From: Mobula hypostoma
Lineage: Eukaryota
Assembly: GCF_963921235.1 (NCBI RefSeq)
Contig: NC_086097.1
Location: 137,394,001 to 137,458,000, forward strand
Direction: 5' to 3'
Length of the DNA stretch: 64,000 bases
The position numbers and the translations under genes were made by a program. Of the stretch, positions 6,195 to 46,135 are shown piece after piece; the stretch's first letter is position 1, and each line of letters opens with the position of its first letter. Under the pieces are notes generated by a model. That model saw only the letters and a list, made by a program, of their open reading frames with translations, was not told the origin of the DNA and ran no database searches.

Positions 6195-6570
6195 TTCAGC
6201 AATTTCTCACCTCTCCCCCTTCTCTTTTTCCATTTCCCATTTTGGTTCACTTCTTCTCACCTGTACATCAACTCCCTCTGGTGCCCTTCCTTCCCTTTCT
6301 GCCATGGTCCATTTTTCTCTCCCATCAGATTCCTTGTGCATCAGTCCTTTACCTATCACCTCCCAGCTTCTCACTTCATCAGCCCTCCCCCTCGCACGGC
6401 CTTACTTATCATTTGCCAACATGAACTCCTTCCCCTCCCTCCACCTTCTTATTCTGGCTTCTCCCCACCTTCCTTTCCAGTCCTGATGAAGGGTCTTGGT
6501 CCAAAATGTCAATTGTTTATTCCTCTCCATAGATGCTGCCAGGCCTGCTGAGTTCCTCCAGCATTCTGCT
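6195..6570 (+). mobile_element. Penelope-like terminal repeat with degenerate hammerhead motif
   Basis: Pyrimidine-rich tract, then cagtcCTGATGAagggtcttggtccaaaatgtc..gatgctgcc..gagttcctccagc. Confidence 0.75.
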
Positions 6571-7636
6571 TATTGTACAGAATAAAAGCAGCTAGTTAAT
6601 GCCAACAGAACTGGAAACATACAAATTCGCTCAATACTTGTTAGGAGATAATAGGAAAACAACAAATCAGAAGGTAGACAGGTGACACAAGAGACTGGAG
6701 ATGCAGAAAATTTAGAGCAACACAAATGAGAAAGCATCTGTGGAAAACAAAAGAAAAGCATCCCTGGAGAAAAATGAACTGTTAATATTTTGGATTGAGA
6801 CCAGTTGCCAACACTGGAAAGAGGGGGAAATAGCCAGGATAAAATGGCAGGACTTTTTTTTCTGTATCAGCAGGAGATCTGCACATTGACCTCATTTTGT
6901 ACCAGTGTAGATTTTGGCAGAATGGTCTCCTAATAGTACTAATAGAATTGATGTCCCAGAACGTCCCCTCAATTGATATTGGAAGCCATATGTTACACAA
7001 TAATTTCAAATGGTGTTAAATAGACAGATGCAGAATTGTTTTCAGTGACCAGGGGGTGTTAGGAGTCCCTGGCTGCACACAATCTTCAAAGAAGAGCATG
7101 GACATTCATGATGAGAGTAGGAGACATTGAGGACAGTGAAGGTTCAGTCATTGATTGCATACAAAATGACAATCCAAAGACTTCAGGACATTAAGGGACT
7201 CGAGGGTTATGGGATTAGTTCAGTAAAAATGCACTGAGGCAGAAGAATGAGTTATGACCTCATTGAATAATGTTTGTAATAGTGTCTGAAGTCATCATGC
7301 AGAGTTGGAGATTAACTTCTGTTATAAACACTTCTATTACAGAAAAGCTTAGGAGTTTTCAAATCCAATTAAAATCTGACAGCTCTAGGTAGTGCCCATT
7401 TGAGACACTTGAAAGGATAATCTGCATCACTTCAACCAAGATACATGGAACAGGATTTGTTACCAGGATATATATTTTTAAAAATATTCATGTATTTTGT
7501 TAAATTATAATAAATTTGGTTTGGGATAATGAAGCTGCTGCTTTTTCTTAGAGCCTCTTTAGAGAAGGAAACATACTAAGCTTCTCTAATGTGGGTCTAC
7601 AAAAGACAGTAGTCCTGCAGTATAGACCTAGGTCCT

Positions 7637-8430
7637 CACAACACGCTGGAGGAACACAGCAGGTCAGGCAGCATCCGTGGAAACGATCAATGTTTCGGGC
7701 CAGAACCCTTCGTCAGGACTGAAGAGGGAAGGGGCAGAGGCCCTATAAAGAAGGTAGGGGGAGGGTGGGAAGGAGAAGGCTGGTAGGTTCCAAGTGAAAA
7801 ACCAGTAAGGGGAAAGATAAAGGGGTGGGGGAGGGGGGCAGGGAGGTGATAGGCAGGAAAGGTGAAGGAATAGGGGGAAACACAATGGGTAGTAGAAGGA
7901 GGCGGATCCCCATTCGGATATGTCCATACATGGCCTCCTCTACTGCCATGATGAGGCTAAACTCAGGTTGGAGGAGCAACACTTCATATACCATCTGGGT
8001 AGTCTCCAGCCCCTTGGTATGAACATAGAATTCTCCAACTTCCGGTAATTCCCTCCCTTCCTCTATCCCTATTTCACTCTGCCCCCTCCCCCAGCTGCCT
8101 ATCACCTCCCTCATGGTTCCGCCTCCTTCTACTACCCATTGTTTTCCCCTATTCGTTCTTCACCTTTCCTGCCTATCACCTCCCTGCTTCCCCTCCCCCA
8201 CCCTTTTATCTTTCCCCTTACTGGTTTTCCACCTGGAACCTAGGAGCCTTCTCCTTCCCACCCTCCCCCCACCTTCTTTATAGGTCCTCTGCCTCTTCCC
8301 TCTACAGTTCTGACGAAGGGTTCCAGCCCAAAACGTTGACTGATCATTTCCACGGATGCTGCCCATCCTGTTGAGTTCCTCCAGCGTGTTGTGAGTGTTG
8401 CTTTGACCCCAGCATCTGCAGAATATTTTG
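7637..8430 (+). mobile_element. 5'-truncated Penelope-like element: inverted terminal repeat, GIY-YIG C-terminus, direct terminal repeat
   Basis: Arms 7637-7906 and 8118-8393 are reverse complements. The spacer encodes HSDMSIHGLLYCHDEAKLRLEEQHFIYHLGSLQPLGMNIEFSNFR*. Confidence 0.85.
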
Positions 8431-9609
8431 TATTTAGACCTAGATCCTCCTAAGCATATTTCAAAGACTTCTCAACTGTCCGCAAAACACTTTGGGAGAA
8501 TTTGTGGAAGGTATTATGGTAATGCACATCCTTCTTCAGCAAGTGGTATCAAACTTACAATGCAATTTGCAGCTGTTTACAAATTAACAACAGACTATTA
8601 CCTGAACAAGACAAAGACGAACCATGGGATCTCAGATGATGACCATCTACAAAAAAGTCAAATTTCAGTTCTGCAACTACAGAAGGGGCCATCTGCTGTC
8701 TGCCCTTGGGAAGGTCTTCTGAAATGATCTCTCCAAAACACCTTTCAGCTACTGAAGAGATGCCTTCACGGCATGGATTCTATCCATCTAGGTGGCACAA
8801 TTAATGTAACCTTCTGTGTAATAATACTTTAAAAAGTATTTTTTTTATTTGTGCAATGTCCACTATAAACATGAATTTTTGACTGTAAAAGTCTTTGATA
8901 TCAATCCAGAGACTTGGGAGTGTTTTTCTCAAATTTAGCTACCTCAAATTTACCCCAAAGACTCCTTGAAAATTAATACCTCTCGGTATTTCTTGGAAAC
9001 TCAACACCATGATGAAAGCAAAATTATTAAATGACCTCAAGTTCCTGTTTGAAAAGCAAATGAAAGACTAAAAGCATCAAAATATTTCTCATACTATCTA
9101 TGCATCAGCACCTCCAGCTTCAGCTGTGGCACATTTGGAGAACCCCTGCTAAACTCATAAAACTGAAGTCAGTCATCCTCACACGATGGCCTTAGATTAG
9201 AAAACCAAAATGAAAACAGAAAATGCCAGAAACACTCAGCAAGAACATCTGTGGAAGGAAAAACCTGAACTATTTCACCTTCCACAGGTGCCGCTTCATC
9301 TGTTAAATGTTTCCAGCAACTTCTAATTCTATGTCTCTTCGTTTAGAAAATGTTTCACCTTTTGAAAGCCATCACAACTGATGCTTTATTACTTTTGCAT
9401 TTTTGCCCCCGACAGTCCTCCACAGAAATTTACTGACAGGAAGCATTTTTTAGCAACCTATTGGCGTCAACCTTCGGTACAGTTGACTCAGCTTACAGGA
9501 AAAAATTGTTTTGTTGAAGATTGGCACACCCTTTGCGGGTTTATAGATTTTATCTGACTTGCATAATATTAAAAATGTGCAAAGAGGGGGAGGGGGAATA
9601 ATTAATACT

Positions 9610-10450
9610 CGCGGAGGTCAGCCACACCCTCACCTTACAGGTGCAAACCTGCTGCCGGTTACAACGTTGACACCACACCTCAAAGTCCTACCCCTCCATG
9701 GTATGACGCGCGTAGCCGGCTCGTCACAGCCCTGCCCCCGCCCCTACCGCGAGCTGCTTTTGACGTTGAAGGGGATGCGCAGTTGAGTGCTGCGCAGGTC
9801 GCTCGAGCCCGAGCTTGTGTTTGCAGCTGTCGGTTTGCGCGGCGCTGGGAACTGCGCCGGTGACGGGATTACGGGAATTTCACATCCGAGGCCGTCCACT
9901 TGCCTGCGCCGTCTTGCTGCTCCTCAGATCCCTCGCGTGGTTAGGTCCGGAGAGGATTAAACCGAGCGATCGCAGGCTTTGGTTAAGGTGAGCGGGCGAA
10001 GAGCCGTGCTCGGAAGCCAGGTGAGGCGAAGTGCCAGTTCTCGCCCGTTTCTGCTCACATCACCTCCCCCAACTCCCCCTCTCCGCTCGCTCCGACGGTG
10101 CTTGTTGCTTCGGGGTGATCGCGGCCGCCTTCGCCCTTCACCCTTCACCGAGGGCTGCGCGAGAGTGAGGCGCTCGCCATCCGGGCCTTCGGTGAGCCCT
10201 GCGCCGCCAGCAACGGAACGCCCGCGAGGGCAGGCGCGGTCGCCACGGTAACCGGCTCGGTTGCGAGCAGGAGGAGGCGGGAGCCGTGCACCTAGGTTTG
10301 GTTCGCTCTGGCCCCGCCCCTTCCCCTCCCCTCCCCTTCCCAGGGGGCTGCGGCGACTTGGGTGAGCCACAGTGGCAAGGTGGCTCTTTCTATCGGGTTT
10401 TACTTGACATTCGTGTACTGATGCATTCCCTCCATCCGATCGCTGGTCCA
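9610..10450. promoter_or_regulatory. CpG island; probable SNRK promoter and non-coding first exon
   Basis: The only long GC/CpG-rich non-repeat stretch. Contains GC boxes (cccccgcccc ~9736, ggccccgcccc ~10310), TGACG half-CRE sites and an NRF1-like tgcctgcgc (~9901). Plus-strand donors AAG|GTGAGC (9988) and CAG|GTGAGG (10021). Confidence 0.8.
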
Positions 10451-11727
10451 GGAAAACTCATATTCCATCTCCCTCTTCTTAAAGGCAATACTTGAAGCAA
10501 TACCATTTTCATCCGGTAAATAGTCAGCGATCTACTACAGATGCTGTCTTACTTGCTGAGTGTATCCAGTATATTTTGCTTTTATTTCAGATTTCCAGTA
10601 TTTACATTCTTTTGCGTTCCAACTTCGCCAACTGGTCCCATGCGTTTGACCTCAGCCTTGTCATTGCTATCTATACTCACTTCTGTAGCATTGCTGACTT
10701 TCGCTTTTCCTTGGCTCATTTTCTGCTGAAATCATCATTTGCCATTGTTTTTTCTGGTCTTGACTATTCCGTCACATTCCAAACCTGCCTCCCTCAATAT
10801 ATTCTGTGAAGTACAGTGGTCATACACAGCTGTCCTTTGTGACAGTGATTCCTGATCACTCGTCTTTCTTATGCACAATGATCCACATTGCCTGCCGGTT
10901 AACCAATGTGTAAGTTTACATTCTCTAATAAATTTTTGCTGCCCTTTTTTGCTTTGCTGCAAACTTCAGCACAGTACCTCTTCAAAATACCTGCACTCCA
11001 ATTTTTATCTCTTGACAATTCCCAGTTTTATTGCTTTTCTATTGGTTGTACTTTCCTTTGCCAAGGTCATAAACTCTGAAATTTCCTTGCTTGACCATGG
11101 GAGGCAGTGATTAAGGAAGAAATCTTTTCTATTTTTACAATGCATTTTAAACCTGTGACTTTGCTGACTTGATTTTTGAAGTTACCATGCAGCATCTTGT
11201 GGTTCCTCCACTGACCATATCTCAGTTGCTTACAATGTACGTGCTGTTTCCTTTTACATAAAATTAGTTCACATTTAAAGAGAAAATTGCATTTTTCTGT
11301 CAGTTATGGCTTTTGATTAGGTCAGTATGGCATTGATTCTGCAATGTAATTGGTTATTAATTTTCCTGGAGCATTGGTTACAGTAATTCAAACGTTGCAT
11401 CAGCCTTATTGTAAATGTCATCTTTTTTTAAGGCTACAGAATTTAATTATGTCGCAATGCAAAATCTGGGTAGTTGGCGCTACTTTGCGCATCTGTCATT
11501 TTGTATCCTCATATAACCCCTCAACAACCCTCTTCAACTTTTTTTAAATAATCACTGGGTTCTTGTGCATTTTGTTTTTTGTTTGCCATAAAGCAACTGC
11601 TGATTTTTTTTTTATTTAAACAAGCCCCCTTTTTTTGTTGAGTTGTTACAGATTTTTGATGACGCCCTTTAACCAGTAAGTAGGTATAGTGGTTCAGCCC
11701 GGCTGTAAGAACCCAATCTCTGACACA

Positions 11728-12457: not shown

Positions 12458-14221
12458 TATACGGTTGCAACATTCAATGTTGCTGTACAATTACAATAGA
12501 CTGAAGAAAATGACATGAAAGTGAAAATGAATAACAAAGAACATGGCTGTCAATATATTACTACAGTATCTGTAATATGAAGCCGTGAATGGATTTTCAG
12601 CTAAATACTAAAAAAGATGGGGAGAGATTTGTAGTTTAATCAGGAAGCAATGGAATTGACTTATTCATCCTTCAGATATGGCTGTTGTCTCTTTTATTTG
12701 CATGAAGATTTGAAACTTTGATGACCTAAGCAGTTTTACAAATGTACTAATTACTTTAATTTGAAAAACGATCACTTTGTTTGGAGGGTTGGAGGTTCTA
12801 GTATATTTTTTTGGTTGTAGTTTTATGTTCAAACAAGAGATGGTAATCTACAAGCTGCTCTACATTCTGATATACCTAGATTTGTACATATGTCTGTAAT
12901 TGTACACTTCTGCTGTTGTATGTAAAGTACTTATTTTTCCTCTCATTGGTTTCCCATTAAGTTGCAGTATTATCCATTTCCCACCAGTACTTTCCATGTA
13001 ATTTCAGTGCTCTCACTGCTTATAGCAAGGTTACCATATTGAATCCAATTACGTTTTTGGAAAAATATTTTGGCATTTTGGTTAGAATATTTTGAGCTAT
13101 AATACTGCTTAAAATATCTGCCTGTATGGTATGAGGCACAGGTCTTCCCCAGAGTTCCGATCCTGAGAATTTTCCATTTCCCAAATGATTTGTATGTCAG
13201 AAATGCAACCATAAACTGAGTTCCCATGTGACAAATGTTCCCACCTGGAGAGTTGGATTGTCCCATAGGAATAGTTAGAATACATGGGTTGCAGTTTGTG
13301 TAAAATCTTTCATGTGGAGCTTTTTTAGAACCCTTCTGAAAGACATCTCATGATGTGAATATTCAGTAAATCTCTGCCTAGCGTTTCATTAGAATAGAGT
13401 CAAGAGACAATTTGAATCTTTGACAATTATAATATTTATCTGACAGTAAAGCTTTTTGTATTGTACACTTTTCATCTTAGTTTATAGTTACTTGAGAATT
13501 ATATTGTACTCTGTTTTGAAACAGAAATATGGTTTAGTAATGTTATTTCATAGAAACATTTTTTTTTATCCAACCTTTTTTTAGTTGTCTATTGTGTATA
13601 CTTAAAGAAGTAATTCAGTTTGATTTGTTGCATATTTGCTAATAACTGACACATGCTTCTGTATAGTTTAAAAACAATTGTTTTGTTACTTGTAGTATGT
13701 AAATTGCAGAACAATTTAGTAGATGTCTAAGTGAGAAAAGTTATAGTTAAAATATTTTCTATTTTGTAAGGATTAGGTTATTTTTTGAATAATGTAAAAT
13801 GTTTTCTAAGGATGTTTTATGTAGATAGAACTGATGTCTAGAATTGATGATGATGAGCAGTATTTTCCCTTATTTTGGGAAACTATTGCTTGCAAGTTAG
13901 TGTAATTATGGCAGTTTGTGCAAATGTTGAAAATGAATGGAAATAAAACATGAACAGCTAGGGTCCAAGTTATTTGGGGAAAAGCATGATAGAACCTCAA
14001 CATGCCATGCCAATAAGCTATGCACATCTCTGAAATTAACATTACTGTTTGCTTTATTCCACATAGAAACATGTAACAATGAGAAAATAATTAATGATTG
14101 CAAATCATTTCCACGTCTATTGGCAATAGAACAGGGGTATTTAATAATATTTGATTAAGGATACCGATTTTTAAAAGCCACCCTCACAGAGCTGCCTTTA
14201 AAGCAATTTCAGGACTTTAAA

Positions 14222-15370
14222 CTTTTGGTTGGCTATATGGAATAATCTGTGTTCTAACCTTACTCTGGTGTCACTCCCCAACTTTTCCTGTGCTGCTTCC
14301 TACACCCGTGCAGAGCTTGTCAATTTCATCAACTTTACCTTCAACTTCCACCCTGCCCTCAAGTTTACCTGGTCCATTTCCGACACCTCCCTCCCCTTTC
14401 TCAGCACAAAATACTCTGCAGATGCTGGGGACAAAGCAACACTCACAACACGCTGGAGGAACCCAACAGGTCGGGCAGCATCCGTGGAAACAATCAGTCA
14501 ACGTTTCGGGCCGGAACCCTTTGTCAGGACTGAAGAGGGAAGGGGCAGAGGCCCTATAAAGAAGGTGGGGGGAGGGTGGGAAGGAGAAGGCTGGTAGGTG
14601 TACCACCACAGGAGTTCCTCCAGTGTGTTGTGAGTGTTGCTCCCTCCCCTTTCTCGATCTCTCATTCTTTATCTCTGGAGAGAGCTTATCTACTGATGTC
14701 TATAATAAACCCACTGACTCTCATGACTACCTGGAATATATCTCCTCCCACCCTGTTACTTGTGAAAATGCTAACCCCTTCTCTCAATTTCTCCGTCTCT
14801 GCTGCATCTGCTCTCAGGATGAGGCTTTTCAATCCAGAACAAAGGAGTTGTTCTCCTTCAAAGAAAGGGGCTTCCCTTTCTCTGCCATCAACACTGCCCT
14901 CAACCCATCCTCCCACCACACCACCATGTGGATAGGGTTCCTCTTGTTCTTACCTACCACCCCACCAGCTTCCATGTCCAGCACATAATTCTCCGTAACA
15001 TCTGTCATCTTCAATAGGATCCCACCACCAAGCATATCTTTCCCTCTTCCCTTCCCCCACTTTCCGCTTTCCACAAGGATCACTCCCTATGCTATTCGTT
15101 ATTGATCTCCCTCCTGACACTTATCCTTGCAAGTGGAACAAGTGCTACACCTGCTCCAACACCACCTCCCGCACTCCCTCACTACCATTCAGGGCCCCAA
15201 ACAGTCCTTCCAGGTGAGGTGACACTTCATCTGTCAGTTTGTTGGAGTCATCTACTGTATCCAGTGCTCCCAATGTGAGACCCAGTGTAGATTGGGAGAC
15301 CACTTCGCCGAGCACCTATGCTCCATCCACCAGAAAAAGTGGAATCTCAATGTGTAATTCCACTTCCCAG
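14222..15370 (+). mobile_element. Degenerate Penelope-like element (RT thumb plus GIY-YIG)
   Basis: FHPALKFTWSISDTSLPFL / DLS..STDVYNKPTDSHDYLEYISSHP..PFSQFLRLCCICS; downstream GVIYCIQCS and RLGDHFAEHL. Confidence 0.85.
14403..14639 (-). mobile_element. Short PLE terminal-repeat-only insertion with 16-bp target-site duplication
   Basis: Flanked by ctccctcccctttctc at 14387-14402 and 14640-14655; nearly identical to the arms at 7637-8430. Confidence 0.85.
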
Positions 15371-18230: not shown

Positions 18231-18358
18231 GGTTCACCATAACAAACAGCAAGAAAAAATATGGGTCCTTTGGATATTTTGAAATAATTGCAAATTGACA
18301 CATTTTACCTGCTACTGGATATAAGCTCTTATGTTCTACTTCCAGTTTTGAAAACACA
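18231..18358 (+). other. SNRK: SNRK 5' UTR portion of first coding exon
   Basis: Acceptor gttttcctcttatattacag ends at 18230; start codon context acaATGG at 18359. Confidence 0.7.
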
Positions 18359-18947
18359 ATGGCAGGTTTTAAACGTGGATATGATGGAAAAATTGCTGGT
18401 CTATATGATTTAGATAAAACATTGGGCAGGGGTCATTTTGCTGTTGTGAAATTAGCACGACATGTTTTCACTGGAGAAAAAGTAGCAGTGAAAGTCATCG
18501 ATAAAACAAAACTTGACTCTGTTGCTACAGGGCATTTGTTCCAGGAAGTCCGATGCATGAAACTTGTGCAGCATCCCAACATTGTTCGTTTATATGAAGT
18601 AATTGACACCCAAACAAAACTTTATCTTATTCTGGAATTGGGAGATGGAGGTGACATGTTTGATTACATCATGAAACATGAAGATGGTCTCAGTGAAGAT
18701 CAAGCAAAAAAATACTTTGCACAGATAGTACATGCGATATCCTATTGCCATAAACTGCATGTTGTTCACAGAGATTTGAAGCCAGAAAATGTGGTTTTCT
18801 TCGAACATCAAGGAATTGTAAAACTTACAGATTTTGGGTTTAGTAACAAGTTTCAGCCTGGAAAGAAGTTAACAACAAGCTGTGGGTCACTTGCATATTC
18901 AGCACCAGAAATTCTGCTTGGAGATGAATATGATGCACCTGCAGTAG
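18359..18947 (+). CDS. SNRK: SNF-related serine/threonine kinase, coding exon 1 (kinase N-lobe to activation loop)
   Basis: [59 protein letters not shown] is the recognisable SNRK N-terminus. Acceptor ttacag|18231, donor G|GTAGGT at 18948; 589 coding nt (phase 1). T173 is at the activation-loop position phosphorylated by LKB1 in AMPK-related kinases. Confidence 0.98.
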
Positions 18948-25154: not shown

Positions 25155-25900
25155 AGGAAAAAATACAAAAATTAGAGGTACAATGGAACTTAGGAGTCTT
25201 TGTGCAGGGTTCCCTAAAGGTTAACTTGCAGGTTGAGTTGGTGGTAAGGAAGGCAAATGCAATACTAACATCATTTTGAGAGGAGTAGAATATAAGAGCA
25301 AGAATATGATGCTGAGGATTTATAAGGAATTGGTCAGATTGTACTTGGAGTATTGTGAGCAACTTTGGGCCCTTTGTATAAGTAAAGATATGATGGTGTT
25401 GGAAAGGGTCCAGGGGAGGTTCACGAGAGTGATTCTAAGAATGATAGAGTTAACAAATGAGCGTTTGATGGCTCTCAGCCTGTACTTGTTGGAATTTAGA
25501 AGAATGAGGGGGGATCTCATTGAAACCTATCGAATTTTGAAAGGCTTAAATAGAGTGGAAGTAGAGGGGATATTTCCTGTAACAGGTGGGTCTAGGACCA
25601 GAGGGCACAGCCTCAGAATAGAGGATTGTCCGTTTAGAATAGAGATGAGGAAGAATTTCTTTAGCCAGAGGGTGGTGAATGTATGGAATTCATTGCCACA
25701 GTTGGCTGTGGAGGGCAGGTCATTGAGTATATTTAAAGCGGAGGTTAACAGATTCTTGATTAGTCAGGGCGTCAAAGGATATGGGGAGAAGGCAAGAGAA
25801 TAGGGTTGAGAGGGACAGTAAATCGGCCATAATGGAATTATGCAGCAGTTTCAATGGGGCCGAAAGGCCTAATTTTGCTCCTATGTCTTATGGGCTTATG
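25155..25900 (+). mobile_element. CR1 LINE 3' fragment
   Basis: LEYCEQLW..LERVQGRFTR..RRMRGDLIETY..RTRGHSL..FFSQRVVNVWNSLP. Confidence 0.9.
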
Positions 25901-32789: not shown

Positions 32790-33035
32790 TGGTGTCATTT
32801 TCTTCCAAAAGATTCCGGATTCTCACATCAGTCTCTTTCATTCTCCTCCCCCCCCCCGCCCCTTTCCCTTCTCACCTGGACACACCTATTTCCCACCAGC
32901 TGCTGCTCCCCCCTTCTTCCTGCTTAGTTCTCAATCCTGATGAAGGGTCGTGGCCCAAAATATTGACTGTTGATTTCCCTTCAAAGAAGCTGCCTGATCT
33001 GCTGAATTCCTCCAGAATTTTGTGTGTGTTGCAGG
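32790..33035 (+). mobile_element. Penelope-like terminal repeat with degenerate hammerhead motif
   Basis: caatcCTGATGAagggtcgtggcccaaaatattgactg..ctgctgaattcctccagaattttgtgtgtgttgc. Confidence 0.75.
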
Positions 33036-33740: not shown

Positions 33741-33789
33741 TTTTTTTTGGTCAACTGTACTAATTATTCTAATATACAGTCAATAATTA

Positions 33790-36700
33790 TGTTTTTGGAT
33801 CACTTTTGGCGCAGGTGTGACCTGTACAAAAAGGACGGGTTACACTTGAATCCTAGGGGGACCAATATCCTGGCGGGGAGATTTGCGAGGGCTACTGAGG
33901 TGACTTTAAACTAGAGTGGTTGGGGGGTGGGAATCAAATTCAAGAGACTAGGAGGTAAGAGGTTAGTTCACAACAGGGGGATGGGAACCAGTGCAGAGAG
34001 ACAGAGGGGTGTAAAATGAGGGTAGAAGCAAAAAGTAGTAAGGTGAAAAGTAAAAATGGCAGGCCGGCAAATCCAGGGCACAAATCAAAAAGGGCCACTT
34101 TTCAACATAATTGTATAAGGGTTAACGGTGTTGTAAAAACGAGCCTGAAGGCTTTGTGTGTCAATGCAAGGAGCATTCGTAACAAGGTGGATGAATTAAA
34201 AGTGCAGATTATTATTAATGAATATGATATAGTTGGGATCACAGAGACATGGCTCCAGGGTGACCAAGGCTGGGAGCTTAACATTCAAGGATATTCAATA
34301 TTCAGGAGGGATAGACATGAAAGAAAAGGAGGTGGGGTAGCATTGCTGGTTAGAGAGGAGATTAACACAATAGAAAGGAAGGACGTTAGCCGGGAGGATG
34401 TGGAATCGATATGGGTAGAGCTGCATAACACTAAGGGGCAGAAAACGCTGGTGGGAGTTGTGTACAGACCACCTAACAATAGTAGTGAGGTTGGGGATGG
34501 TATTAAACAGGAAATTAGAAATGTGTTCAATAAAGGAACAGCAGTTATAATGGGTGACTTCAATCTACATATAGATTGGTTGAACCAAATTGGTAAGGGT
34601 GCTGAGGAAGAAGATTTCTTGGAATGTATATGGGATGGTTTTTTGAACCACCATGTCGAGGACTGGGTATTGAGCAATGAGGAAGGGTTAATTAGCAATC
34701 TTGTCGTGAGAGGCCCCTTGGGTAAGAGTGACGATAATATGGTGGAATTCTTCATTAAGATGGAGAGTGACATAGTTAATTCAGAAACAAATGTTCTGAA
34801 CTTAAAGAAGGGTAACTTTGAAGGTATGAGACGTGAATTAGCTAAGATAGACTAGCAAATGACACTTAAAGGGTTGACGGTGGATATACAATGGCAAGCA
34901 TTTAAAGATCACATGGATGAACTACAACAATTGTTCATCCCAGTTTGGCAAAAGAATACATCAAGGAAGGTAGTGTACCCATGGCTGCAAGGGAATTAGG
35001 GGTAGTATCAATTCCAAAGAAGAAGCATACAAATTAGCCAGAAAAAGTGGCTCACCTGAGGACTGGGAGAAATTCAGAGTCCAGCAGAGGAGGACAAAGG
35101 GCTTAATTAGGAAGGGGAAAAAGCATTATGAGAGAAAACTGGCAGGGAACATAAAAACTGACTGTAAAAGCTTTTACAGATATGTGAAAAGAAGAAGATT
35201 GGTTAAGACAAATGTAGGTCCCCTACAGACAGAAACAGGTGAATTGATTATGGGGAGCAAGGACATGGCTGACCAATTGAATAACTACTTTGGTTCTGTC
35301 TTCACTAAGGAGGACATAAATAATCTTCCAGAAATAGTAGGGGACAGAGGGTCCAGTGAGATGGAGGAACTGAGGGAAATACATATTAGTAGGGAAGTGG
35401 TGTTAGGTAAATTGAAGGGATTAAAGGCAGATAAATCCCCAGGGCCAGATGGTCTGCATCCCAGAGTGCTTAAGGAAGTAGCCCAAGAAATAGTGGATGC
35501 ATTAGTGATAATTTTTCAAAATTCTTTAGATTCTGGACTAGTTCCTGAGGATTGGAGGGTGGCTAATGTAACCCCACTTTTTAAAAAAGGAGGGAGAGAG
35601 AAACAGGGGAATTATAGACCGATTAGCCTAACATCGGTGGTGGGAAAGATGCTAGAGTCAGTTATCAAAGATGTGATAACAGCACATTTGGAAAGCGGTG
35701 AAATCATCGGACAAAGTCAGCATTGATTTGTGAAAGGAAAATCATGTCTGGAGAATCTCATAGAATTTTTTGAGGATGTAACTAGTAGAGTGGATAGGGG
35801 AGAACCAGTGGATGTGGTATATTTGGATTTTCAAAAGGCTTTTGACAAGGTCCCACACAGGAGATTAGTGTGCAAACTTAAAGCACACAGTATTGGGAGT
35901 AAGGTATTGATGTAGATAGAGAATTGGTTGGCAGACAGGAAGCAAAGAGTGGGAATAAACGGAACCTTTTCAGAATGGCAGGCAGTGACTAGTGGGGTAC
36001 CGCAAGGCTCAGTGCTGGGACCCCAGTTGTTTACGATATATATTAATGACTTAGATGAGGGAATTAAATGCGGCATCTCCAAGTTTGCGGATGACACAAA
36101 GCTGGGCGGCAGTGTTAGCTGTGAGGAGGATGCAGGGTGACTTGGATAGGTTAGGTGAGTGGGCATATTCATGGCAGATGCAATTTAATGTGGATAAATG
36201 TGAGGTTATCCACTTTGGTGGCAAAAACAGGAAAACAGATTATTATCTGAATGGTGGCCAATTAGGAAAAGGGGAGGTGCAACGAGACCTGGGTGTCATT
36301 ATACACCAGCCATTGAAAGTGGGCATGCAGGTACAGCAGGCAGTGAAAAAGGCGAATGGTATGCTGGCATTCATAGCAAGAGGATTCGAGTACAGGAGCA
36401 GGGAGGTACTACTGCAGTTGTACAAGGCCTTGGTGAGACCACACCTGGAGTATTGTGTGCAGTTTTGGTCCCCTAATCTGAGGAAAGACATCCTTGCCAT
36501 AGAGGGAGTACAAAGAAGGTTCACCAGATTGATTCCTGGGATGGCAGGACTTTCATATGATGAAAGACTGGATGAACTAGGCTTATACTCACTGGAATTT
36601 AGAAGATTGAGGGGGGATCTGATTGAAACATATAAAATCCTAAAGGGATTGGACAGGCTAGATGCAGGAAGATTGTTCCCGATGTTGGGGAAGTCCAGAA

Positions 36701-37015
36701 CGAGGGGTCACAGTTTGAGGATAAAGGGGAAGCCTTCTAGGACTGAGATGAGGAAAAACTTCTTCACACAGGGAGTGGTGAATCTGTGGAATTCTCTGCC
36801 ACAGGAAACAGTTGAGGCCGGTTCATTGGCTATATCTAAGAGGGAGTTAGATTATGGTCCTTGTGGCTGAAGGGATCAGGGGGTATGGAGAGAAGGCTGG
36901 TACAGGGTTCTGAGTTGGATGATCAGCCATGATCATACTGAATGGCGGTGCAGGCTCGAAGGGCAGAATGGCCTACTCCTGCACCTATTTTCTTTGTTTT
37001 CTATGTTTCTATGTT
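33790..37015 (+). mobile_element. Young CR1 LINE: end of ORF1 (SGNH esterase-like) and near-complete but disrupted ORF2 (APE plus RT)
   Basis: DGLHLN (ORF1); NARSIRNK..GITETWL..YRPP..MGDFN (APE); [35 protein letters not shown] (RT). A few stops and frameshifts; (tttctatg)n tail. Confidence 0.95.
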
Positions 37016-37053
37016 TTACAGATTATAGGTATTGTATGTTAAAAATGAAAACT

Positions 37054-38620: not shown

Positions 38621-40691
38621 GAGTGGTGCTAGAAAGTTTATGAACCCTGTAGAATTTTCTCTATTTCTGCGTAAATATGACCTAAGATGTGATCAGATCT
38701 TTATAAGTTTTAAAACTAAATAAAGAGAACCCAATTAAATAAATAACACAAAAATATTATACTTGTTCATGTATTTATCGAAAAAAATTCCAATACTCTA
38801 TGTATTTGTTGGAAAACATACGTGAACATTTGCTTTCAGTAAAGCCTGATTTATACTTCTGCATCAATGCAATGTAAAAAGTACTGCATCGCCGCAAAGC
38901 CAACGCAGATCCCTACGCCAGAGCCTGCGTTGCAGCGATGCACATCTCTCCCAAAATGTAACCGTGCGTCGCGGCAACGCAGAACGCAACAGTTGTGATT
39001 GGTCCGCTTGGTAGCATCGCATTTCATCCTACGCTGCAGTAGCTTCCCATTGGGCGACTGAAGGGCAGGGAAGGAACTCTGGCTGCAATGATAAAGCTTT
39101 ACAGACCTCCGAAATTACGGAGGACACATTTCGCTTTTACGAAAAATGCTCACTTCTTGTTTACCCCGAGGAAGACTACCATGACCATGAAGCCTTGCGC
39201 GGGCAGGTGTGTGCGCATGTGTGACGTGCGCGAATTGCAGAGTGATGCAGGCATACCAACGCACAAGTATAAGTGCTCACAACGCGCATAAGTCACTTGC
39301 GTAGGTTACGGCGTCAAGTTAACGCAGAAGTATAACACAGGCTTAACTGGTGTGACCCACTTTTACAGCAATAAATTTAACCAAACATTTCCAGTAACTG
39401 TTGATCAATCCTGCACATTGGCTTGGAGAAATTTTACGCCATTCCCCCTTACAAAACTGCTTCAACTCTGGGATATTGGTAGGCTTCCTTGCATGAACTG
39501 CTTACTTCAGGTCCTTTCACAACATTTCTATCGGATTAAGTTCAGGACTTTGACACGGGATTTTCTTCTTTTTAAACCATTGTTGTTGATTCACTCTGTG
39601 TTTTCGGATCATTGTCTTGTTGCATTATCCAACTTCTATTGAGCTTCAAGTGATGGACTGCTACCCTGACATTCTCCTGTAGTGTCTTGATACAATTTTA
39701 TCTCAACGATTGCAATCTGTCCAGGCCCTGAGGCAGCAAAGCAGCCCCAAACCATGAATCTCCTTCCACCACTCTTCACAGCTAGAATGAGGTTTTTGGG
39801 GTTTGTGGGCAGTGCCCTTTTCCCTCCAAACATATTGGTATGCAATTCTGCAAAAAAATGTTCAACTTTTGTCTCATCTGTCCACAGAATATTGTCCCGA
39901 AAGCGTTGTAGAACATCTAGATGGTCTTGTAAACTTGAGACTTGCAGCAATGTTTTTTTTGGAGAGCTGTGGTTTCCTCCTTGTTGTCCTTCCATGAACA
40001 TTATTCCTGTTCAGTGTTTTTTCTTATAGTGGACACATGAACGGAGACTTTAGCAAGTTTTAGAGATTTCTGCAGGTCTTTTGCTATTACCCTTGGGTTC
40101 TTTTTCACCTCCTTCAGCATTGCACATTGTGCTCCTGGTGTGATCTTTGTAGGATGCCCACTCCTAGGGAGAGTAGCAACAATACTGAATTTCTTCCATT
40201 TGTAGACAGTTTCTCTTGCTGTGGACTGAAGCGCACTCAGGTCTTTTGGAAATGCTTTTGTAGCCTTTTCCATCTTCATGCTTCTCTACAATTCTTCTAA
40301 GGTCCTCTGAAAGTTGTCTTGATCGGGGCATGGTACACATAAACAGATCTTTATTGAGAAGAACAGGCTCTGGCAGTAACCTTTGAGTGTCTTTTTTATA
40401 GGGTGGGGCACCCTTACAACCCACACCTCCAATCTCATCTCATTGATTAGAACACCTGACTCCAAATAGCTTTTGTAGAAAGCATCACCCCAGAGGTTCA
40501 CATATTTTTCCCAACTGAAACATTTAATATTGGATCATTTTTGTCAATAAATGAGCAAGTGTAATGTTTGCTGTGTTATTTATTTAATTAGGTTCTCTTT
40601 ATTCAGTTTTAGGACTTGCATGAAGATCTGATCTCATTTATGCAGAAATGGAGAAAATTCTACAGGGTTCACAGTCTTTCTAGCACCAATG
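38621..40691 (-). mobile_element. Tc1/mariner DNA transposon with long TIRs and disrupted transposase
   Basis: TIRs gtggtgctagaaag..tgaaccctgtagaattttctc / gagaaaattctacagggttca..ctttctagcacca, then TA. Peptides MPRSRQLSEDLRR, RSGHPTKITP, ILWTDETKVE, FMVWGCFAASGPG. Confidence 0.92.
38843..39343. mobile_element. PIF/Harbinger-type MITE nested in the Tc1 element
   Basis: TIRs agcctgatttatacttctgc / gcagaagtataacacaggct; 3-bp TAA duplication at 38840-38842 and 39344-39346. Confidence 0.8.
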
Positions 40692-41539
40692 TATAAACAG
40701 TAGCAACAATACAATTGTGTGAATAGGTACTACAGAAAATTAGTAAACACTGAAGAATTATAATAAGTATAATCTCAAGTGAAAGGTATTAGTATTGAAT
40801 ATACATGTAAAAATAAAACCAGCTTATTAGATAGTTTTTAAAAAATAATTTAATTTTTAGGCAAATATTTTTAAAAATACTATTATATATGCCGATTCTA
40901 TGTGGCAATAAAGAGTGTATACTCACCAAGGAAAGCGAATTGAACTTCCTTTCAAGCTAAAGTATCAGAAATTTAATGGAAGCTGTAGTGTAAATAGTGA
41001 TGCAGTGGTACATTCACGCATTCACGCCTCTACAGTTTAGCCATTTCTGGCAGATGACCTCACTGCAGTAACTACAGGCTTCTTGTCGCATTTAACACGC
41101 ATGGGTCAGTGGAAGATAAACAGAACCAGCCTCCTGCTGCATATTCACTGATTGGCCTTGCTGGAGACAGCCCTGCCCCGTCTTCAGTTTGTTTGTGATA
41201 CTTGTAATGGTTTTAATTAGATTACCACAACATGGGCCATCCCAGGCTTTCCATATTGATCCCCTTCTGATAAGGGTCTTGATAAGGAAAACATGGCAAC
41301 TTCTGACAGTCTTTCAGTCGGAATTAGATGTGGACGGTTCCTATTAACATGTAATTATCCATAGCAAAGTAATCATAATCACTGGTTCATGGCACACATT
41401 ATCGGGGTGTCCTACCGGGTTGCACTCGCCTCTCATGATCAGTGATTTTGGGGGTGGATGTGAAATGGCGCTCTGCAGGGTGTGAATTGTGATCTGTGTA
41501 TGGTCAAGCTTGAGCAGAGATTATGCCTGTCACCTCTTC

Positions 41540-41541
<2 letters not shown>

Positions 41542-41583
<42 letters not shown>
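41542..41583. repeat. (AC)n microsatellite, ~21 units
   Basis: Perfect AC run. Confidence 0.98.
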
Positions 41584-41585
<2 letters not shown>

Positions 41586-42810
41586 ACCACCACCAGTCTA
41601 CACCTGTTTTGTTGGCTCATTTGCATCATCTAGCATATTTTCCCATTCACTTCATTCAGGGTTCCAATTAAATTACATACATATATTAATTTCTTTTATT
41701 TATTTATATATTTTAGTAATATGTGTTAAAACAGTAAACTTACCGTGGCCCATTCAGAAATTTCTGTGGCTCCCAGTTTCTTTATTTACTTGTGGCTCTT
41801 ACAAAATCCAGCATGGCACCCTAGGGGGCCATATGGCCCATGTTGAGAATCACTGTTTTAGATGTTTCTTGTGGAGGTTTTGCAGTGACTAGTCTAATAT
41901 ACAGATCGTGAAGAAAATCATAATGATAGTCTATGCCAATAAGAAATGGATGGTTGGACTTTCTATGAAACCCCTAATTAAATCTTGTTTCTTAGTCTAT
42001 TATTTCCTTGTAGAGGTATCAGTCAAATCTCATTTCTTAGAACTTTACAGTCAGTATTACTGTAAAGCACAATTACCTGTCATAACACATCTAGGAAATT
42101 AACATTCAACTAACTGATTCCCTAAGTGTCATTGTCACAGGAGTAACAAAAAAAAGTATCAAAGGAATAAGTGAACAAAGATATTCAAGAATAAAATTAT
42201 TGTTTCGTGTATCATAAAACTGATTATTCTGAACCTTCTTAGTTTTAGGTTCAGATCCTCCTTAGTTTTGGGTACATGCTTTTATTTGAAATGATTGAAA
42301 TGTAAGCTTCAATGTTGGGATTCCATGAGTTCTAGAAGGATTTGTTGATGATGATCAGGTTTTTGAAATCAATATAATTTTGTAGACTTTGCCCCTAAAT
42401 AATATTTAGTAATTATGCATCTTCGCTGTGGATGAAATTTTATAGAAAAAGAATGTCCATAATTTCCCATGAGGAGAAGGGGATACTATATGGTTACTTT
42501 TACTGCTACTGCAATGCAGTCTCCTCATTCCTACTGATGTGAAGATTATAGAATAGTAATAATTAGATGTGAATCAGATCGTGAGTGAATTGCAAAACTT
42601 AATCAATCTGTGCAAATTAGCTCAAATGTTGAAATCAAAACCTCAAGGGAATAACAAAATGTGCGTATTGCTATTTTCTCTTGTATGTTGGAGGAACATG
42701 GAACAGGAAGGGAGCAGTCCAGTTGTATGATAGACCTTCAGGGCTGTTTCTGCTATAGGTAGAGGGAGCAATTATTCTGAATAAATTTTTCTCATCTTTA
42801 ACAGTAACCA

Positions 42811-42918
42811 GGGGAGGGAACGTCAACTCAGACCACGAGAGGCCTGCGTCGGGCATTTTCATGCCTTACAAGGTGCAGATTGGAAGTCTATGTGGGGCGT
42901 CACTCCTCACACAGAATC
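42811..42918 (-). mobile_element. 5'-truncated SINE/LINE tail with 12-bp TSD
   Basis: taacagtaacca at 42799-42810 and 42919-42930; the minus strand resembles 43729-43800. Confidence 0.7.
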
Positions 42919-43167
42919 TAACAGTAACCAAATCTATGATAAAGATTAAGAACTTATTTTAAATGGGAATAGTCACTTTTACTGCCAGTTAAAGTTTTCA
43001 ATGTTTGGATTGATAATAGAATGGAGTAACTTTAGAATATCCACTTAGGCAAGTATTGCACAAATCAAAGCACATACTTCTTCCGAAAGACCAAATACTT
43101 TCTAAATGCAGGTTTACAGTTTGAGCTATTAGAAACTATTAAGTCTTTTTCATGCTTATCTTTGCAG

Positions 43168-43309
43168 ATATCTGGAGCCTGGGTGTTATTCTTTTCATGT
43201 TGGTATGTGGGCAGCCTCCATTTCAAGAGGCAAATGACAGTGAGACTCTCACCATGATTATGGACTGCAAGTACACAGTGCCTGCCCATGTCTCCAAAGA
43301 ATGCAAGGA
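43168..43309 (+). CDS. SNRK: SNRK coding exon 2 (kinase C-lobe)
   Basis: tttgcag|AT ATC TGG.. reads (D)[46 protein letters not shown]; donor GA|GTAAGT; 142 nt, phase matches the previous exon. Not in the ORF track. Confidence 0.97.
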
Positions 43310-43512
43310 GTAAGTCATTGATATGCTATAATGTATGTTGTCATAGCATGAATTACTTCTAACCTGATTGATGGTTTAGGAAATGCTATTTACATTAAAT
43401 AGGCTACATACGTTAAGGATCAATTAAAAAAACTTAAAATTTGTGCTTTGAAGCGTTTATAAAATCCATTGCAAGATTTTCTATAATGTAAGGTTTCTTG
43501 TGAATATAACTA

Positions 43513-44367
43513 CATGTTCCCCCGCTATCCGAAAGTAGAGTGTTCCTATGAAACCATTCATGGGCTGGCTGGTGGCGCAACGACATCGGCGCCGGACCCG
43601 GGAGCGGAGGTTCTCGGGTTTGAAACTAGTCGGGTCCGCCCCCGAGTACACTTTCCATCCATGCCAGGTTGAGTGTCGAGATCGCAACTCGACCTCATAA
43701 AATAAAGGGAAAAATACTGTGAAAATGCCTGTTTGAGGAGTGGTGCGTCACACTGTCTCTCTCTCGCTCCGCGCCTTGTAAAAAGCCATGAAAAAGACAT
43801 CATCATGGACGCATGCACGGACACGGAAACGCACACACACGCACACTGGCACGCACGCAGGCACATGCCAAAAAAAAGGAAAGAAAGAAACCATTTGTAA
43901 GCTGAAATGGCGTAAAGTGAAGCAGCAATTACCATTAATTTATATGGGAAAAATTTCTGAGCGTTCCCAGACCCAAAAAATAACCTACCAAAATCATACC
44001 AAATAACATATAAAACCTAAAATAACACTAACATATAGTAAAAGCAGAAATGATATGATAAATGCACAGCCTATTATCTACTTTATACGTAGAAATAATA
44101 TATGTACAGTGTAGTTTCACTTACCAGAATCGGGAAGATTTAGCCAAAACCGATTTGTAGAACATGCATGCACACACACCTGCCGCACAAGGCTTCACGG
44201 TCATGGTAGTCTTTCTCGGGGTAAACACAAGTTTAAAGCGGGCGCCTTTTTTCATAAAAGCGAAAATCCTCCGGATTTCTTTCAGTTAGTGAAAACAAGT
44301 ACTAATGTAGGTCTTTCGTAAAAGTGAAGTGGCGTAAAACGAACTTTTGTAAAGTGGGGGACACCTG
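43513..44367. mobile_element. Tigger/pogo-type MITE containing a tRNA-derived SINE-like segment (~43562-43800)
   Basis: TA|catgttcccccgct ... agtgggggacacctg|TA; internal A box tggcgcaacg and B box gggtttgaaac. Confidence 0.75.
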
Positions 44368-44756
44368 TATTGTGTTGCTATCAATTGTATTTTTCTACAG
44401 CTGTTTTGTAAATATTTAATACTAATAAATATTATAAATATATTTAATAAGGCTTTACATTTAAAACAGCTACTTGACGGACTAACAGTGGAACTTGATT
44501 AAAAAGATTCCAAAATAATTAGGAAAATTTAAGGTGATGTATTGTAAATAAATATCCCTTCCAAAACTGTTACTTTTCATTTCCATGTATAAATGTGGGC
44601 TGACTACAAGTTGCTAATTTGAAAATGGTTTGTATCTGTCCAGGTTTTAGTTGGACTTGTGGTTAAGATGCTTAATATATGGTGGTGATTAAAACTTAGA
44701 ACTCAGTTTTTCCTGGGCACTCCTCACATCAATTTTCCACTCTAAATGCATAGCTA

Positions 44757-45440
44757 GGTAGGATCATAAAGAGAGTTTTTGGCACATTGGCCTTCATAAA
44801 TCAAAATATTGAGTACAGGAGTTGAGATGTTATGATGAAGTTGTATAAGACATTCATTGTCGTTGTTGCTACCAATAATCAGGCCTAATTTGGAGCATTG
44901 TGTGAAGTTATGATTACCTACATGCAGGAAAAATATCAATAAGATTGAAAGAATACAGAGAAAGTTTACAAGGATGTTGCCAGGACTTGAGGGCCTGAGT
45001 TATAAAGAAAGGTTAAATAGGTTAGGCCTTTTTTCCCTGGAGAGTAGGAGAATGAGGGGAGATTTAATAGAGGTTTCAAAAGTATGAGGGGTATAAATCG
45101 GATAAATGCAAGCAGGCATTTTCCACTGAGATTGGGTGGGACTCAACCTAAAGGTCATAGGCTAAGGATGAAAGGTGAAATATTTAAGGTGAACATGAGG
45201 GGAAACTTCTTCGCTCAAAGGGTGGTGAGAGTGTGGAACAAGCTACCAGTGGAAATGATAGATCTGGGTTTAATTTCAACATTTAAGAGAAATTTGTGTA
45301 AGTACATGGAAGAAAGGGGTATGGAGGATTATAGTCCAGGTGTGGGTCAATAGGTCTAGGCAGATTAATAGTTCAGCATGGACTAGATGGGCAAAAGGGC
45401 CTGGTTATGTGCTGTAGTGCTCTGTGACTTTCTGACTATA
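44757..45440 (+). mobile_element. CR1 LINE 3' fragment
   Basis: MRGINRINASRHFPL..FFAQRVVRVWNKLP. Confidence 0.88.
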
Positions 45441-45540
45441 TTAGTTTGGATATCCCATTTTCTCAATAACAGAAGGCAGTGATTCTAAACAGTTTCAGCA
45501 CACGCAAGTTTTTATATTTTTCTAATGTTATTTCCTACAG

Positions 45541-45753
45541 TCTTATCAATCGCATGCTGCAGAGAGATCCAAAACGAAGAGCCTCACTGGAAGAGATTGA
45601 GAACCACCGTTGGCTTCTAGGAATTGATCCTTCACCTGCAACCAAGTGCAATATTCCGCTTGTCTCTTACAAGAATCTCTCAGATGAAGAACATAATGGG
45701 ATCATCCAGCGCATGGTGCTTGGTGACATTGCAGACCGAGAAACTATTATTGA
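45541..45753 (+). CDS. SNRK: SNRK coding exon 3 (end of kinase domain, start of UBA-like region)
   Basis: ttcctacag|T CTT ATC.. reads (D)[34 protein letters not shown]; donor GA|GTAGGT; 213 nt. Confidence 0.97.
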
Positions 45754-45927
45754 GTAGGTGCAACGGAACCCTACACACAAGAAGCAAGTCTTTATCAATA
45801 CTGGCTTCTTTTCCAAAGTGTATTGTGAATATATTGTTTACATGTGCTATCAAAATTTTGAGACTGATAGATTTAGCACACATCACAAAACTTGAAATTA
45901 AGCTGTATTGTTTAGCTTAACTGCATA

Positions 45928-46135
45928 AACAAAAGAAAATCTGCAGATGCTGGAGATCCGAGCAACACACACAAAATGCTGGAGGAACTCAGCAGGCCAG
46001 GCAGCATCTGTGGGGAAGAAAAGTATAGTTGATGTTTCGGTCCTGCCAAAGGGTTTCAGCCCGAAACGTCAGCTGTCTTTTTTCCATAGATGCTACCTGG
46101 CCTGCTGAGTTCCTCCAGCATTTTGTGTGTGTTGC
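45928..46135. mobile_element. Palindromic PLE terminal-repeat-derived element
   Basis: Arms 45962-46040 and 46061-46135 are near-perfect reverse complements; hammerhead remnant ccGAAACGTC. Confidence 0.8.

What the first reader, a model, noticed from the sequence alone, without database searches (positions are those of the whole stretch)
6478..46075. Six copies of a minimal type-I hammerhead ribozyme motif in Penelope-like terminal repeats
Seen: copies at 6478-6515(+), 7686-7722(-), 8305-8343(+), 14494-14533(-), 32932-32969(+) and 46036-46075(+). Their consensus is CAGUC-CUGA(U/C)GA-A-GGGU(UCCG)GCCC-GAAACGU(U/C)-GACUG. This gives stem I (CAGUC/GACUG), the CUGANGA core, a 4-bp stem II with tetraloop, GAAA, a loop-less palindromic stem III (ACGU) and a GUH cleavage triplet. 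Established: Penelope-like elements carry minimal hammerheads with palindromic helix III that are thought to cleave as dimers. Inference: this lineage has a high-copy self-cleaving RNA module that defines PLE transcript ends. Three copies lie inside the SNRK transcription unit, two of them sense.
Basis: partly seen in the sequence, partly recalled or inferred. Interest (0 to 1): 0.75.

Follow-up and report, generated by a model that had tools for sequence, protein, structure and literature searches.

The report
Decayed Penelope hammerheads, capped uncut template
These six motifs are mutated relics of the small self-cutting RNA module that Penelope-type jumping genes are known to carry; elsewhere in this genome short copies tend to begin at the module's first base with an extra G, not at its predicted cut site, so they were likely copied from capped, uncut RNA.

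Summary
The six motifs exist and are not chance, but they are five insertions of decayed Penelope-like element (PLE) ends. Only 1 of 6 keeps both catalytic boxes and none also keeps the ACGU helix III. Both sense copies inside SNRK lack G8 or G12. The genome holds 100,177 exact core matches against 47 in the control, and long copies carry an RT plus GIY-YIG-like ORF. Minimal hammerheads in PLE pLTRs are published (PMC4209133). The claim that cleavage defines transcript ends is not supported: 20 of 20 ORF-picked copies run 53-99 nt past the cut site, and 5' ends at the cut site are 0 of 96 and 2 of 99. Instead 5' ends pile up 6-7-fold at the ribozyme's 5' edge. Copies starting at -32 are preceded by G in 50 of 83, against 12 of 61 and 11 of 32 in controls. 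Likely reading: the RNA starts, capped, at helix I, and reverse transcription runs off the uncut 5' end. No RNA ends were measured. The scan noted this pattern before in other shark/ray genomes (unchecked notes).

The parts
6478..6515 (+). Decayed minimal hammerhead (G12>A, helix III AUGU) in an older-subfamily pLTR remnant that matches other copies over about 6426-6568
7635..7909 (-). Inverted, 5'-truncated, tail-less pLTR copy; holds the motif at 7684-7721 (both boxes intact, helix III ACAU)
7910..8436 (+). Main copy of the same insertion: end of the PLE ORF (7911-8027, 97% to L065 protein), pLTR with motif 8305-8342 (G12>A; predicted cut 8337|8338) and tail; target duplication of about 12 bp around 7635-8436
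14401..14650 (-). Short pLTR insertion (main copy about 14406-14599 with motif 14495-14532, G8>A; inverted fragment 14612-14649) with a target duplication of about 14-16 bp, antisense in SNRK intron 1
14181..15366 (+). Older broken PLE ORF remnant (RT to endonuclease region, 53-76% to L065 protein), interrupted by the 14401-14650 insertion
   Evidence: tblastn
32932..33033 (+). Old pLTR remnant with decayed motif 32932-32969 (G12>A, helix III AUAU), sense in SNRK
45926..46136 (.). Head-to-head inverted insertion: tailed copy on - (45926-46040, starts about 10 nt before the cut site) joined to a tail-less copy on + that starts at about -31 (motif 46038-46075, A6>C and G8>A); 6-bp target duplication read by eye
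9797..10020 (+). SNRK first (non-coding) exon
   Evidence: joined to 18231 in 4 of 4 runs of one study
18231..18947 (+). SNRK first coding exon (kinase domain)
51812..53071 (+). Open frame that is likely SNRK's last coding exon (inferred, not aligned to SNRK)

Best explanation
The six motifs are decayed copies of the minimal hammerhead in the pseudo-LTR of endonuclease-bearing Penelope-like retrotransposons, and they were likely copied from capped, uncleaved RNA that likely starts at the ribozyme's first paired base. Shown: the motif sits in the pLTR behind an RT/GIY-YIG-like ORF; copies end at two sites about 65 and 100 nt past the predicted cut; 5' ends pile up at -40 to -15 with a peak at -32/-31; copies starting at -32 are enriched for a preceding G; after insertion the motif decays mainly at CpG. 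Inferred: an internal promoter starts transcription at A(-32); the PLE enzyme starts reverse transcription internally at about +65 or +100; on the RNA's front pLTR the cDNA runs off the cap after 100-135 nt and copies the cap as an extra G, giving short solo and fold-back copies; on the rear pLTR it gives long copies. The hammerhead in the master elements would then cut slowly, as a dimer or with protein help, and a cut would remove the cap or the priming sites rather than make the template's ends. The six window copies are predicted to be inert.
For: Identity: RVT_1 32.2 and 35.1 bits (cut-off 29.6) and GIY-YIG 15.8 and 17.0 bits (below the 22.6 cut-off) in 643- and 727-aa open frames upstream of the pLTR; partial tandem pLTR-ORF-pLTR in L062; inverted truncated copy and tail as described in PMC8557442. 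3' ends: 20 of 20 loci picked by protein run 53-99 nt past the cut site; subfamily B ends cluster at +57..+78 (52 of 99) and +99..+114 (36 of 99), like the two internal RT starts that bound the tail in Anolis PAc (PMC11167929). 5' ends of copies picked only by a downstream anchor: B 33 of 99 at -39..-15 against 15 at -143..-40; A 25 of 96 at -40..-16 against 19 at -240..-41, 7 at exactly -32 (at least one is a B-type copy); per-base rate 5.9 and 7.4 times higher, p 3e-9 and 2e-10. At the cut site: 0 of 96 (-2..+2) and 2 of 99 (0, +1; both inversion junctions). Base before a -32 start: G 50, A 20, T 13 of 83 (tallied by eye from 100 of 215 listed, 17 B-type rows left out; a script on the 30 fetched loci gave G 17 of 24). 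Controls: G 12 of 61 for a -27 start (Fisher p 1.3e-6) and 11 of 32 at other ends (p 0.021). Other subfamilies: G 22 against A 7. An extra G marks copied caps at full-length L1 5' junctions (PMC11702581). D. virilis Penelope has an internal TATA-less promoter (PMC2377424). Decay: CpG sites differ at 87 of 492 and non-CpG at 16 of 1066 cells in the motif. An intact monomer folds into a non-catalytic hairpin (-11.9 against -7.9 kcal/mol), and the active dimer (-14.7) is far above the cofold minimum (-32.1).
Against: No RNA 5' end was observed: the runs on hand are contigs. The pile-up is broad (-40 to -15), and 34 of its 58 ends adjoin an inversion; for ends with no adjacent inversion the excess is 6.1-fold in A (p 4e-5) but only 2.3-fold in B (p 0.03). 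Both arms of an inverted pair were counted as separate ends. In several copies with a clear target duplication (L322, L350, L365) the G belongs to the target site, so it shows microhomology, not an added base (by eye). The second control (34% G) is nearer to the test value than the first (20%). The same position also looks like a 3' splice site, and in D. virilis the start lies 46 bp before an intron whose end meets helix I. Samples are the first matches on one contig, not random draws. Cutting followed by ligation would leave no trace in the DNA.
Confidence: 0.62

Rival explanations
1. One reading: the hammerheads of the two pLTRs cleave as a dimer, release a unit-length RNA, and the ends are ligated into a circle that is the main template.
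For: The 38-nt motif is 0.92 identical between subfamily majorities while the upstream flank is 0.48-0.51, so master elements keep it. L062 has two motifs in direct orientation 3.5 kb apart and a more-than-unit-length copy. Dimers cleave weakly in vitro and the circle model is proposed in PMC4209133. Ligation restores the sequence, so long copies could come from circles unseen.
Against: Copy ends avoid the cut site: 0 of 96 and 2 of 99 5' ends, 0 of 20 3' ends. A circle has no end at -32 and no cap G. PAc hammerhead mutants insert normally in vitro and no RNA-seq reads start or end at the cut site (PMC11167929). The conservation figure is partly circular because copies were found by the motif, and no two-sided stem change was seen among the majorities.
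Confidence: 0.18
2. The 5' pile-up is real but marks a splice acceptor or a reverse-transcriptase pause and fold-back site, not a capped start.
For: All four subfamily majorities have a pyrimidine tract followed by YAG just before the core. In D. virilis the intron end maps to helix I (PMC4209133). The GUC-CU-GAC quasi-palindrome centres many inversions, and the monomer forms a stable hairpin.
Against: Spliced host exons should end mostly in C/A-A-G (recalled consensus), but G outnumbers A 50 to 20 before the AG. Where a target duplication is clear it abuts the -32 start within 0-11 nt, with no captured exon (by eye). A junction of the ORF-end donor to this acceptor has 0 matches in the genome (one candidate donor only). 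A pause at a helix should fall on its 3' side (inference), where ends are few.
Confidence: 0.17
3. The sense copies in SNRK introns cleave the host pre-mRNA and regulate the gene.
For: Two copies are sense within the likely transcription unit.
Against: 32932 lacks G12; 46036 lacks A6 and G8. G12 and G8 are the catalytic base and acid (PMC6155905). The two lie 13 kb apart and their helix III halves differ. Spliced SNRK contigs of about 4.4 kb are present in 3 of 4 runs. The density is ordinary for a genome with over 100,000 intact cores.
Confidence: 0.02

Closest known systems
Minimal type-I hammerheads (min-HHR) in pLTRs of metazoan PLEs, including fish Neptune, Poseidon and Xena (Cervera and De la Pena 2014, PMC4209133; parts 1-2 of 4 read)
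   Same: CUGANGA and GAAA boxes, an extra base before helix II, G10.1-C11.1, palindromic helix III with no loop, short helix I, mostly solo copies from truncated PLEs, some close pairs on opposite strands.
   Different: Helix II is 4 bp here (7-8 bp in Schistosoma). The count, 100,177 exact cores, is far above the about 4,000 (coelacanth) and 9,000 (Xenopus) reported there with another descriptor. The end census argues against cleavage making the template's ends, which that paper proposes.
Poseidon element of Anolis carolinensis, PAc (Frangieh et al. 2024, PMC11167929; parts 1-2 of 4 read; supplements searched, no hits)
   Same: Two internal RT start sites that bound a 30-40 nt tail downstream of the hammerhead; uncut RNA as template; hammerhead inactive without protein.
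   Different: Here the linker has a CxxC motif (Neptune-type). PAc's ORF starts inside the hammerhead; here the spacer varies 18/19/20 nt between subfamilies, so no shared frame runs through it. The paper's parts read give no RNA start site or cap signature.
Drosophila virilis Penelope internal promoter (Schostak et al. 2008, PMC2377424; passages read)
   Same: Internal TATA-less promoter in the pLTR region; a splice-acceptor-like sequence meets helix I.
   Different: There the start lies 46 bp before a 75-bp intron that ends at helix I; here the inferred start is at helix I itself and no spliced copy was found for the one donor tried.
Non-LTR retrozymes of animals (bioRxiv 10.64898/2026.07.22.740005; part 1 of 5 and passages read)
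   Same: Type-I hammerheads related to PLE pLTRs; reported in one chondrichthyan.
   Different: Retrozymes are tandem arrays with a ribozyme in each unit; the window's copies are dispersed or inverted PLE ends with ORF remnants.

Membership tests
PLE minimal hammerhead | CUGANGA and GAAA catalytic boxes | tested here: met
   Met for the family: 100,177 exact cores vs 47 control. In the window only 1 of 6 copies keeps both.
PLE minimal hammerhead | Extra base between 9 and 10.1; G10.1-C11.1 pair; helix II | tested here: met
   6 of 6 window copies have the A, the G-C pair and 4 of 4 helix II pairs counting G-U.
PLE minimal hammerhead | Loop-less palindromic helix III and NUH triplet | tested here: met
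   ACGU-C in all subfamily majorities; ACGU in 3 of 6 window copies.
PLE minimal hammerhead | Lies in the pLTR of a PLE | tested here: met
   Behind the ORF in long loci and at window 7910-8436.
PLE minimal hammerhead | Compensatory changes in helices I and II | tested here: inconclusive
   Majorities differ in the tetraloop and outer helix I only; no two-sided change. No cross-species set was available.
PLE minimal hammerhead | Self-cleavage as a dimer | not testable with these tools
   Folding only: monomer prefers a non-catalytic hairpin and the active dimer is not the minimum.
Endonuclease-positive PLE, Neptune type | One ORF with RT and C-terminal GIY-YIG | tested here: met
   RVT_1 above cut-off; GIY-YIG at E 0.007-0.018, below cut-off; full-length relatives carry both Pfam domains (P0009).
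Endonuclease-positive PLE, Neptune type | Partial tandem pLTR, inverted 5'-truncated copy, 30-40 nt tail | tested here: met
   L062 tandem; window 7635-8436 and 45926-46136 inverted; ends differ by about 35 nt.
Endonuclease-positive PLE, Neptune type | CX2-5CxxC linker between RT and endonuclease | tested here: met
   Read directly in the L061, L065 and L008 translations; feature as in PMC8557442.
Endonuclease-positive PLE, Neptune type | Placement in the Neptune clade by RT phylogeny | not tested
   No tree was built; the clade name rests on the linker motif.
Non-LTR retrozyme | Tandem units, each with a complete hammerhead | tested here: not met
   In the window the copies are dispersed or inverted and none is head-to-tail; the rest of the genome was not screened for arrays.

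The most novel reading that the evidence does not exclude
In ray Neptune-type PLEs the hammerhead is the very front of the capped transcript: helix I's 5' strand doubles as the transcription initiator, and internally primed reverse transcription that runs off the cap mass-produces 100-135 nt ribozyme-headed stubs and fold-backs. The ribozyme is then a decapping or off switch on the element's own RNA, not the tool that cuts out the template.
Probability: 0.5. Interest if true: 0.62.

Novelty: new member of a known kind. Interest (0 to 1): 0.38.

Why it matters
As flagged, it is a known motif in a known element, and the window's copies are predicted dead. What adds value is the end census. What PLE hammerheads do is an open question (PMC8557442 calls it unclear). 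A genome with over 100,000 copies records where the template RNA began and ended, and it points to a capped start at the ribozyme and to uncut templates. That agrees with the single biochemical study and gives a base-precise prediction, a cap at A(-32), that one CAGE or 5' RACE experiment can test. It would also explain why solo and inverted pLTR stubs are so many.

Tried and rejected
Rfam scan of the window: no hammerhead family at E<=1. Cores with 14-18 nt spacing: 912 matches vs 983 in the control, no excess. RNA: no RNA holder listed, only contig runs guessed to be RNA. Laying four runs on the tandem element L062 gave no pile of ends and no joint at the candidate intron among the 15 of 281 joints shown; contigs cannot show ends, so this says nothing either way. 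Intron-less junction of the ORF-end donor to the helix-I acceptor: 0 matches. ORF starting at the AUG of a CUGAUGA core, as in PAc: in frame in subfamily A, but spacers of 18, 19 and 20 nt break a shared frame and relatives start at a later Met-Pro (P0010). Pfam found nothing in the 237-aa C-terminal part alone. The subfamily A 3'-end column was capped by short references and is not used. Cluster 25 is a fold-back junction form of subfamily B, not a subfamily, yet it is inside the 10 pairwise identities. One search was a useless self-comparison. Lunse et al. 2016 is not held; I saw only its title in a reference list, and it may already list shark or ray examples. Not-in-print searches: searches found no paper on a cap G or RNA start at a PLE hammerhead, nor on elasmobranch PLE hammerheads; subscription papers, Repbase and Dfam were not searched, and the supplements of PMC4209133 (not opened) and of the bioRxiv preprint (closed) may bear on this.
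Full report
Observation. The six motifs are at the stated places. A fuzzy scan finds these 6 in the window and none in 20 random sequences of the same dinucleotide make-up. Rfam has no hit for them. Copy by copy they are damaged: 6478, 8305 and 32932 have G12>A; 14494 has G8>A; 46036 has A6>C and G8>A; 7686 keeps both boxes but reads ACAU in helix III. G12 and G8 are the catalytic base and acid (PMC6155905, passages). The six belong to five insertions. 7635-7909(-) and 7910-8436(+) are one head-to-head insertion with a target duplication; 14401-14650 sits inside an older broken PLE ORF; 45926-46136 is another inverted pair.

What the element is. Window 8230-8430 has 1,651 candidates in the 3.48-Gb genome, 40 scored. 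The flanking protein has 224,001 first-look candidates. Open frames of 643 and 727 aa upstream of the repeat carry RVT_1 above cut-off and a weak GIY-YIG match below cut-off, with a CxxC linker read directly in the translation. L062 is a partial tandem, pLTR-ORF-pLTR, with two motifs 3.5 kb apart. Inverted truncated copies and a 30-40 nt tail are the described PLE architecture (PMC8557442, passages). The nearest proteins are from two rays at 82%, so the host is likely a ray. The Neptune label rests on the linker; no tree was built.

How common and how conserved. The two boxes at fixed spacing with ACGU match 100,177 times against 47 for the reversed pattern; a stricter pattern matches 21,556 times against 0; wider spacings show no excess. 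From 185 fuzzy hits, 172 unique, 165 with pLTR sequence behind them, five clusters of three or more were formed (38 copies left out); one is a fold-back form. Between majorities the 38-nt motif is 0.92 identical, the upstream flank 0.48-0.51, the spacer 0.63 and the next 40 nt 0.83. This is partly circular, since copies were found by the motif, and no two-sided stem change appears. Within subfamily A (41 of 45 copies from protein-picked loci) differences in the motif fall at CpG: 87 of 492 cells against 16 of 1066; flanks give 53 of 246 and 143 of 3321; 25 of 45 keep both boxes and the palindrome. So masters keep the motif and inserted copies decay. All this fits the published min-HHR (PMC4209133, parts 1-2 of 4), which names Neptune elements of fishes and reports low activity even as dimers.

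Does cleavage define the ends? Positions below are relative to the predicted cut. 3' ends: 20 of 20 loci picked by protein run 53-99 nt past it, and subfamily B ends cluster at +57..+78 (52 of 99) and +99..+114 (36 of 99). 5' ends were mapped in copies picked only by a downstream anchor, the first matches on contig C1. Subfamily B (99 copies): 44 reach beyond -143, 15 end at -143..-40, 33 at -39..-15, 7 at -14..+15, of which 2 at 0/+1, both inversion junctions. Subfamily A (96 copies): 25 end at -40..-16, 7 of them at -32 (at least one is B-type), and 0 at -2..+2. The per-base rate at the ribozyme's 5' edge is 5.9 and 7.4 times the upstream rate. Both arms of inverted pairs were counted; for ends without an adjacent inversion the excess is 6.1-fold in A (p 4e-5) and 2.3-fold in B (p 0.03). 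The retrotransposed RNA was therefore not cut at the ribozyme, unless cuts were ligated again. PAc agrees: ribozyme mutants insert normally, cleavage needs the protein, and no reads end at the cut site (PMC11167929, parts 1-2 of 4).

What marks -32? Among subfamily A copies with foreign sequence before -32 (215 matches, 100 listed, 17 with subfamily B flank left out) the preceding base is G 50, A 20, T 13 (by eye; G 17 of 24 by script on the fetched loci). Leaving out five G that an adjacent inversion or duplication could explain gives 45 of 78. Controls: G 12 of 61 before a -27 start (p 1.3e-6) and 11 of 32 before other ends (p 0.021). In the other loop class, 29 of the first 100 matches had G or A there: 22 G, 7 A. 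An extra G at the 5' junction reflects the cap in full-length L1 insertions, also as microhomology (PMC11702581, passages). In some copies here the G is part of the target duplication (L322, L350, L365), in others it is extra (L329, L332, L338) (by eye). The bases around A(-32) resemble an initiator consensus (recalled, not from a call), and D. virilis Penelope has an internal promoter with Inr and DPE (PMC2377424, passages). The window's 46036 copy starts at about -31 and is an example of this class.

Mechanism. Shown: location, decay, two 3' end classes, the 5' pile-up, the G bias. Inferred: transcription starts at A(-32); reverse transcription starts internally at about +65 or +100; on the front pLTR it runs off the cap and gives 100-135 nt stubs, often folded back or joined head-to-head; on the rear pLTR it gives long copies. 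Folding predicts that an intact monomer pairs its core into a non-catalytic hairpin (-11.9 vs -7.9 kcal/mol) and that the active dimer (-14.7) is not favoured (cofold minimum -32.1), which fits slow or protein-assisted cutting. A cut in the front pLTR would remove the cap; a cut in the rear one would remove the priming sites. Rivals: cut-and-ligate circles (cannot be excluded for long copies); a splice acceptor or pause at the same place (pyrimidine tract plus YAG in all majorities, but no captured exons and 0 spliced junctions for the donor tried); host regulation (no support).

SNRK. The kinase exon matches SNRK and exon 1 at about 9797-10020 is joined to 18231 in 4 of 4 runs of one study. 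The placement is right, but both sense copies lack catalytic bases, so an effect on SNRK is unlikely.

Novelty. The motif in PLE ends is known; this is one more host lineage with a very high count. I found no paper on a cap signature or RNA start at a PLE hammerhead, with the limits listed under Tried and rejected. PMC3846280 (passages) explains junction palindromes by self-priming on an antisense template, a different reading. Five unchecked notes of this scan report the same run-off pattern in other shark- or ray-like genomes; my reading was fixed before that look-up and they are not independent support. Interest 0.38: ordinary as flagged, with one testable mechanistic lead.

Noticed in passing
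L116, L119, L123, L133 (around base 1500 of each): A second kind of minimal hammerhead with a longer helix II (17-18 nt between the boxes); L133 lies beside a PLE ORF remnant 51% identical to the L065 protein.
   Followed up: partly
G000 C1, first 100 matches: About two thirds read U instead of C at position 11.1 (G-U closing pair) while the other CpGs are intact, which suggests a large subfamily with a weakened helix II rather than decay alone.
   Followed up: no
window 8353-8420 and subfamily majorities: A long-range stem downstream of the ribozyme (GAUGCUG paired with CAGCAUC) recurs in folds of subfamilies A, B and C; the two 3' end clusters fall inside it and just behind it. Candidate binding or priming structure.
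   Followed up: partly
P0001, P0004: Public ray gene models named after host genes consist almost wholly of this PLE ORF; P0001 runs past the usual stop, which hints at a splice donor at the ORF end or at an annotation artefact.
   Followed up: partly
window 14181-15366: A young pLTR stub has inserted into the RT region of an older PLE copy, inside SNRK intron 1.
   Followed up: yes
L061:1705-3885 (-): The 727-aa frame owes its length to about 20 tandem copies of a 9-residue unit just before the RT domain.
   Followed up: no
window 33959-36870 (+), 3386-3874 (-), 25237-25803, 44749-48678: Broken LINE remnants with endonuclease and RT matches make up most other repeats of the window.
   Followed up: no
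window 562-715: Three head-to-tail copies of a 50-52 nt AT-rich unit.
   Followed up: no
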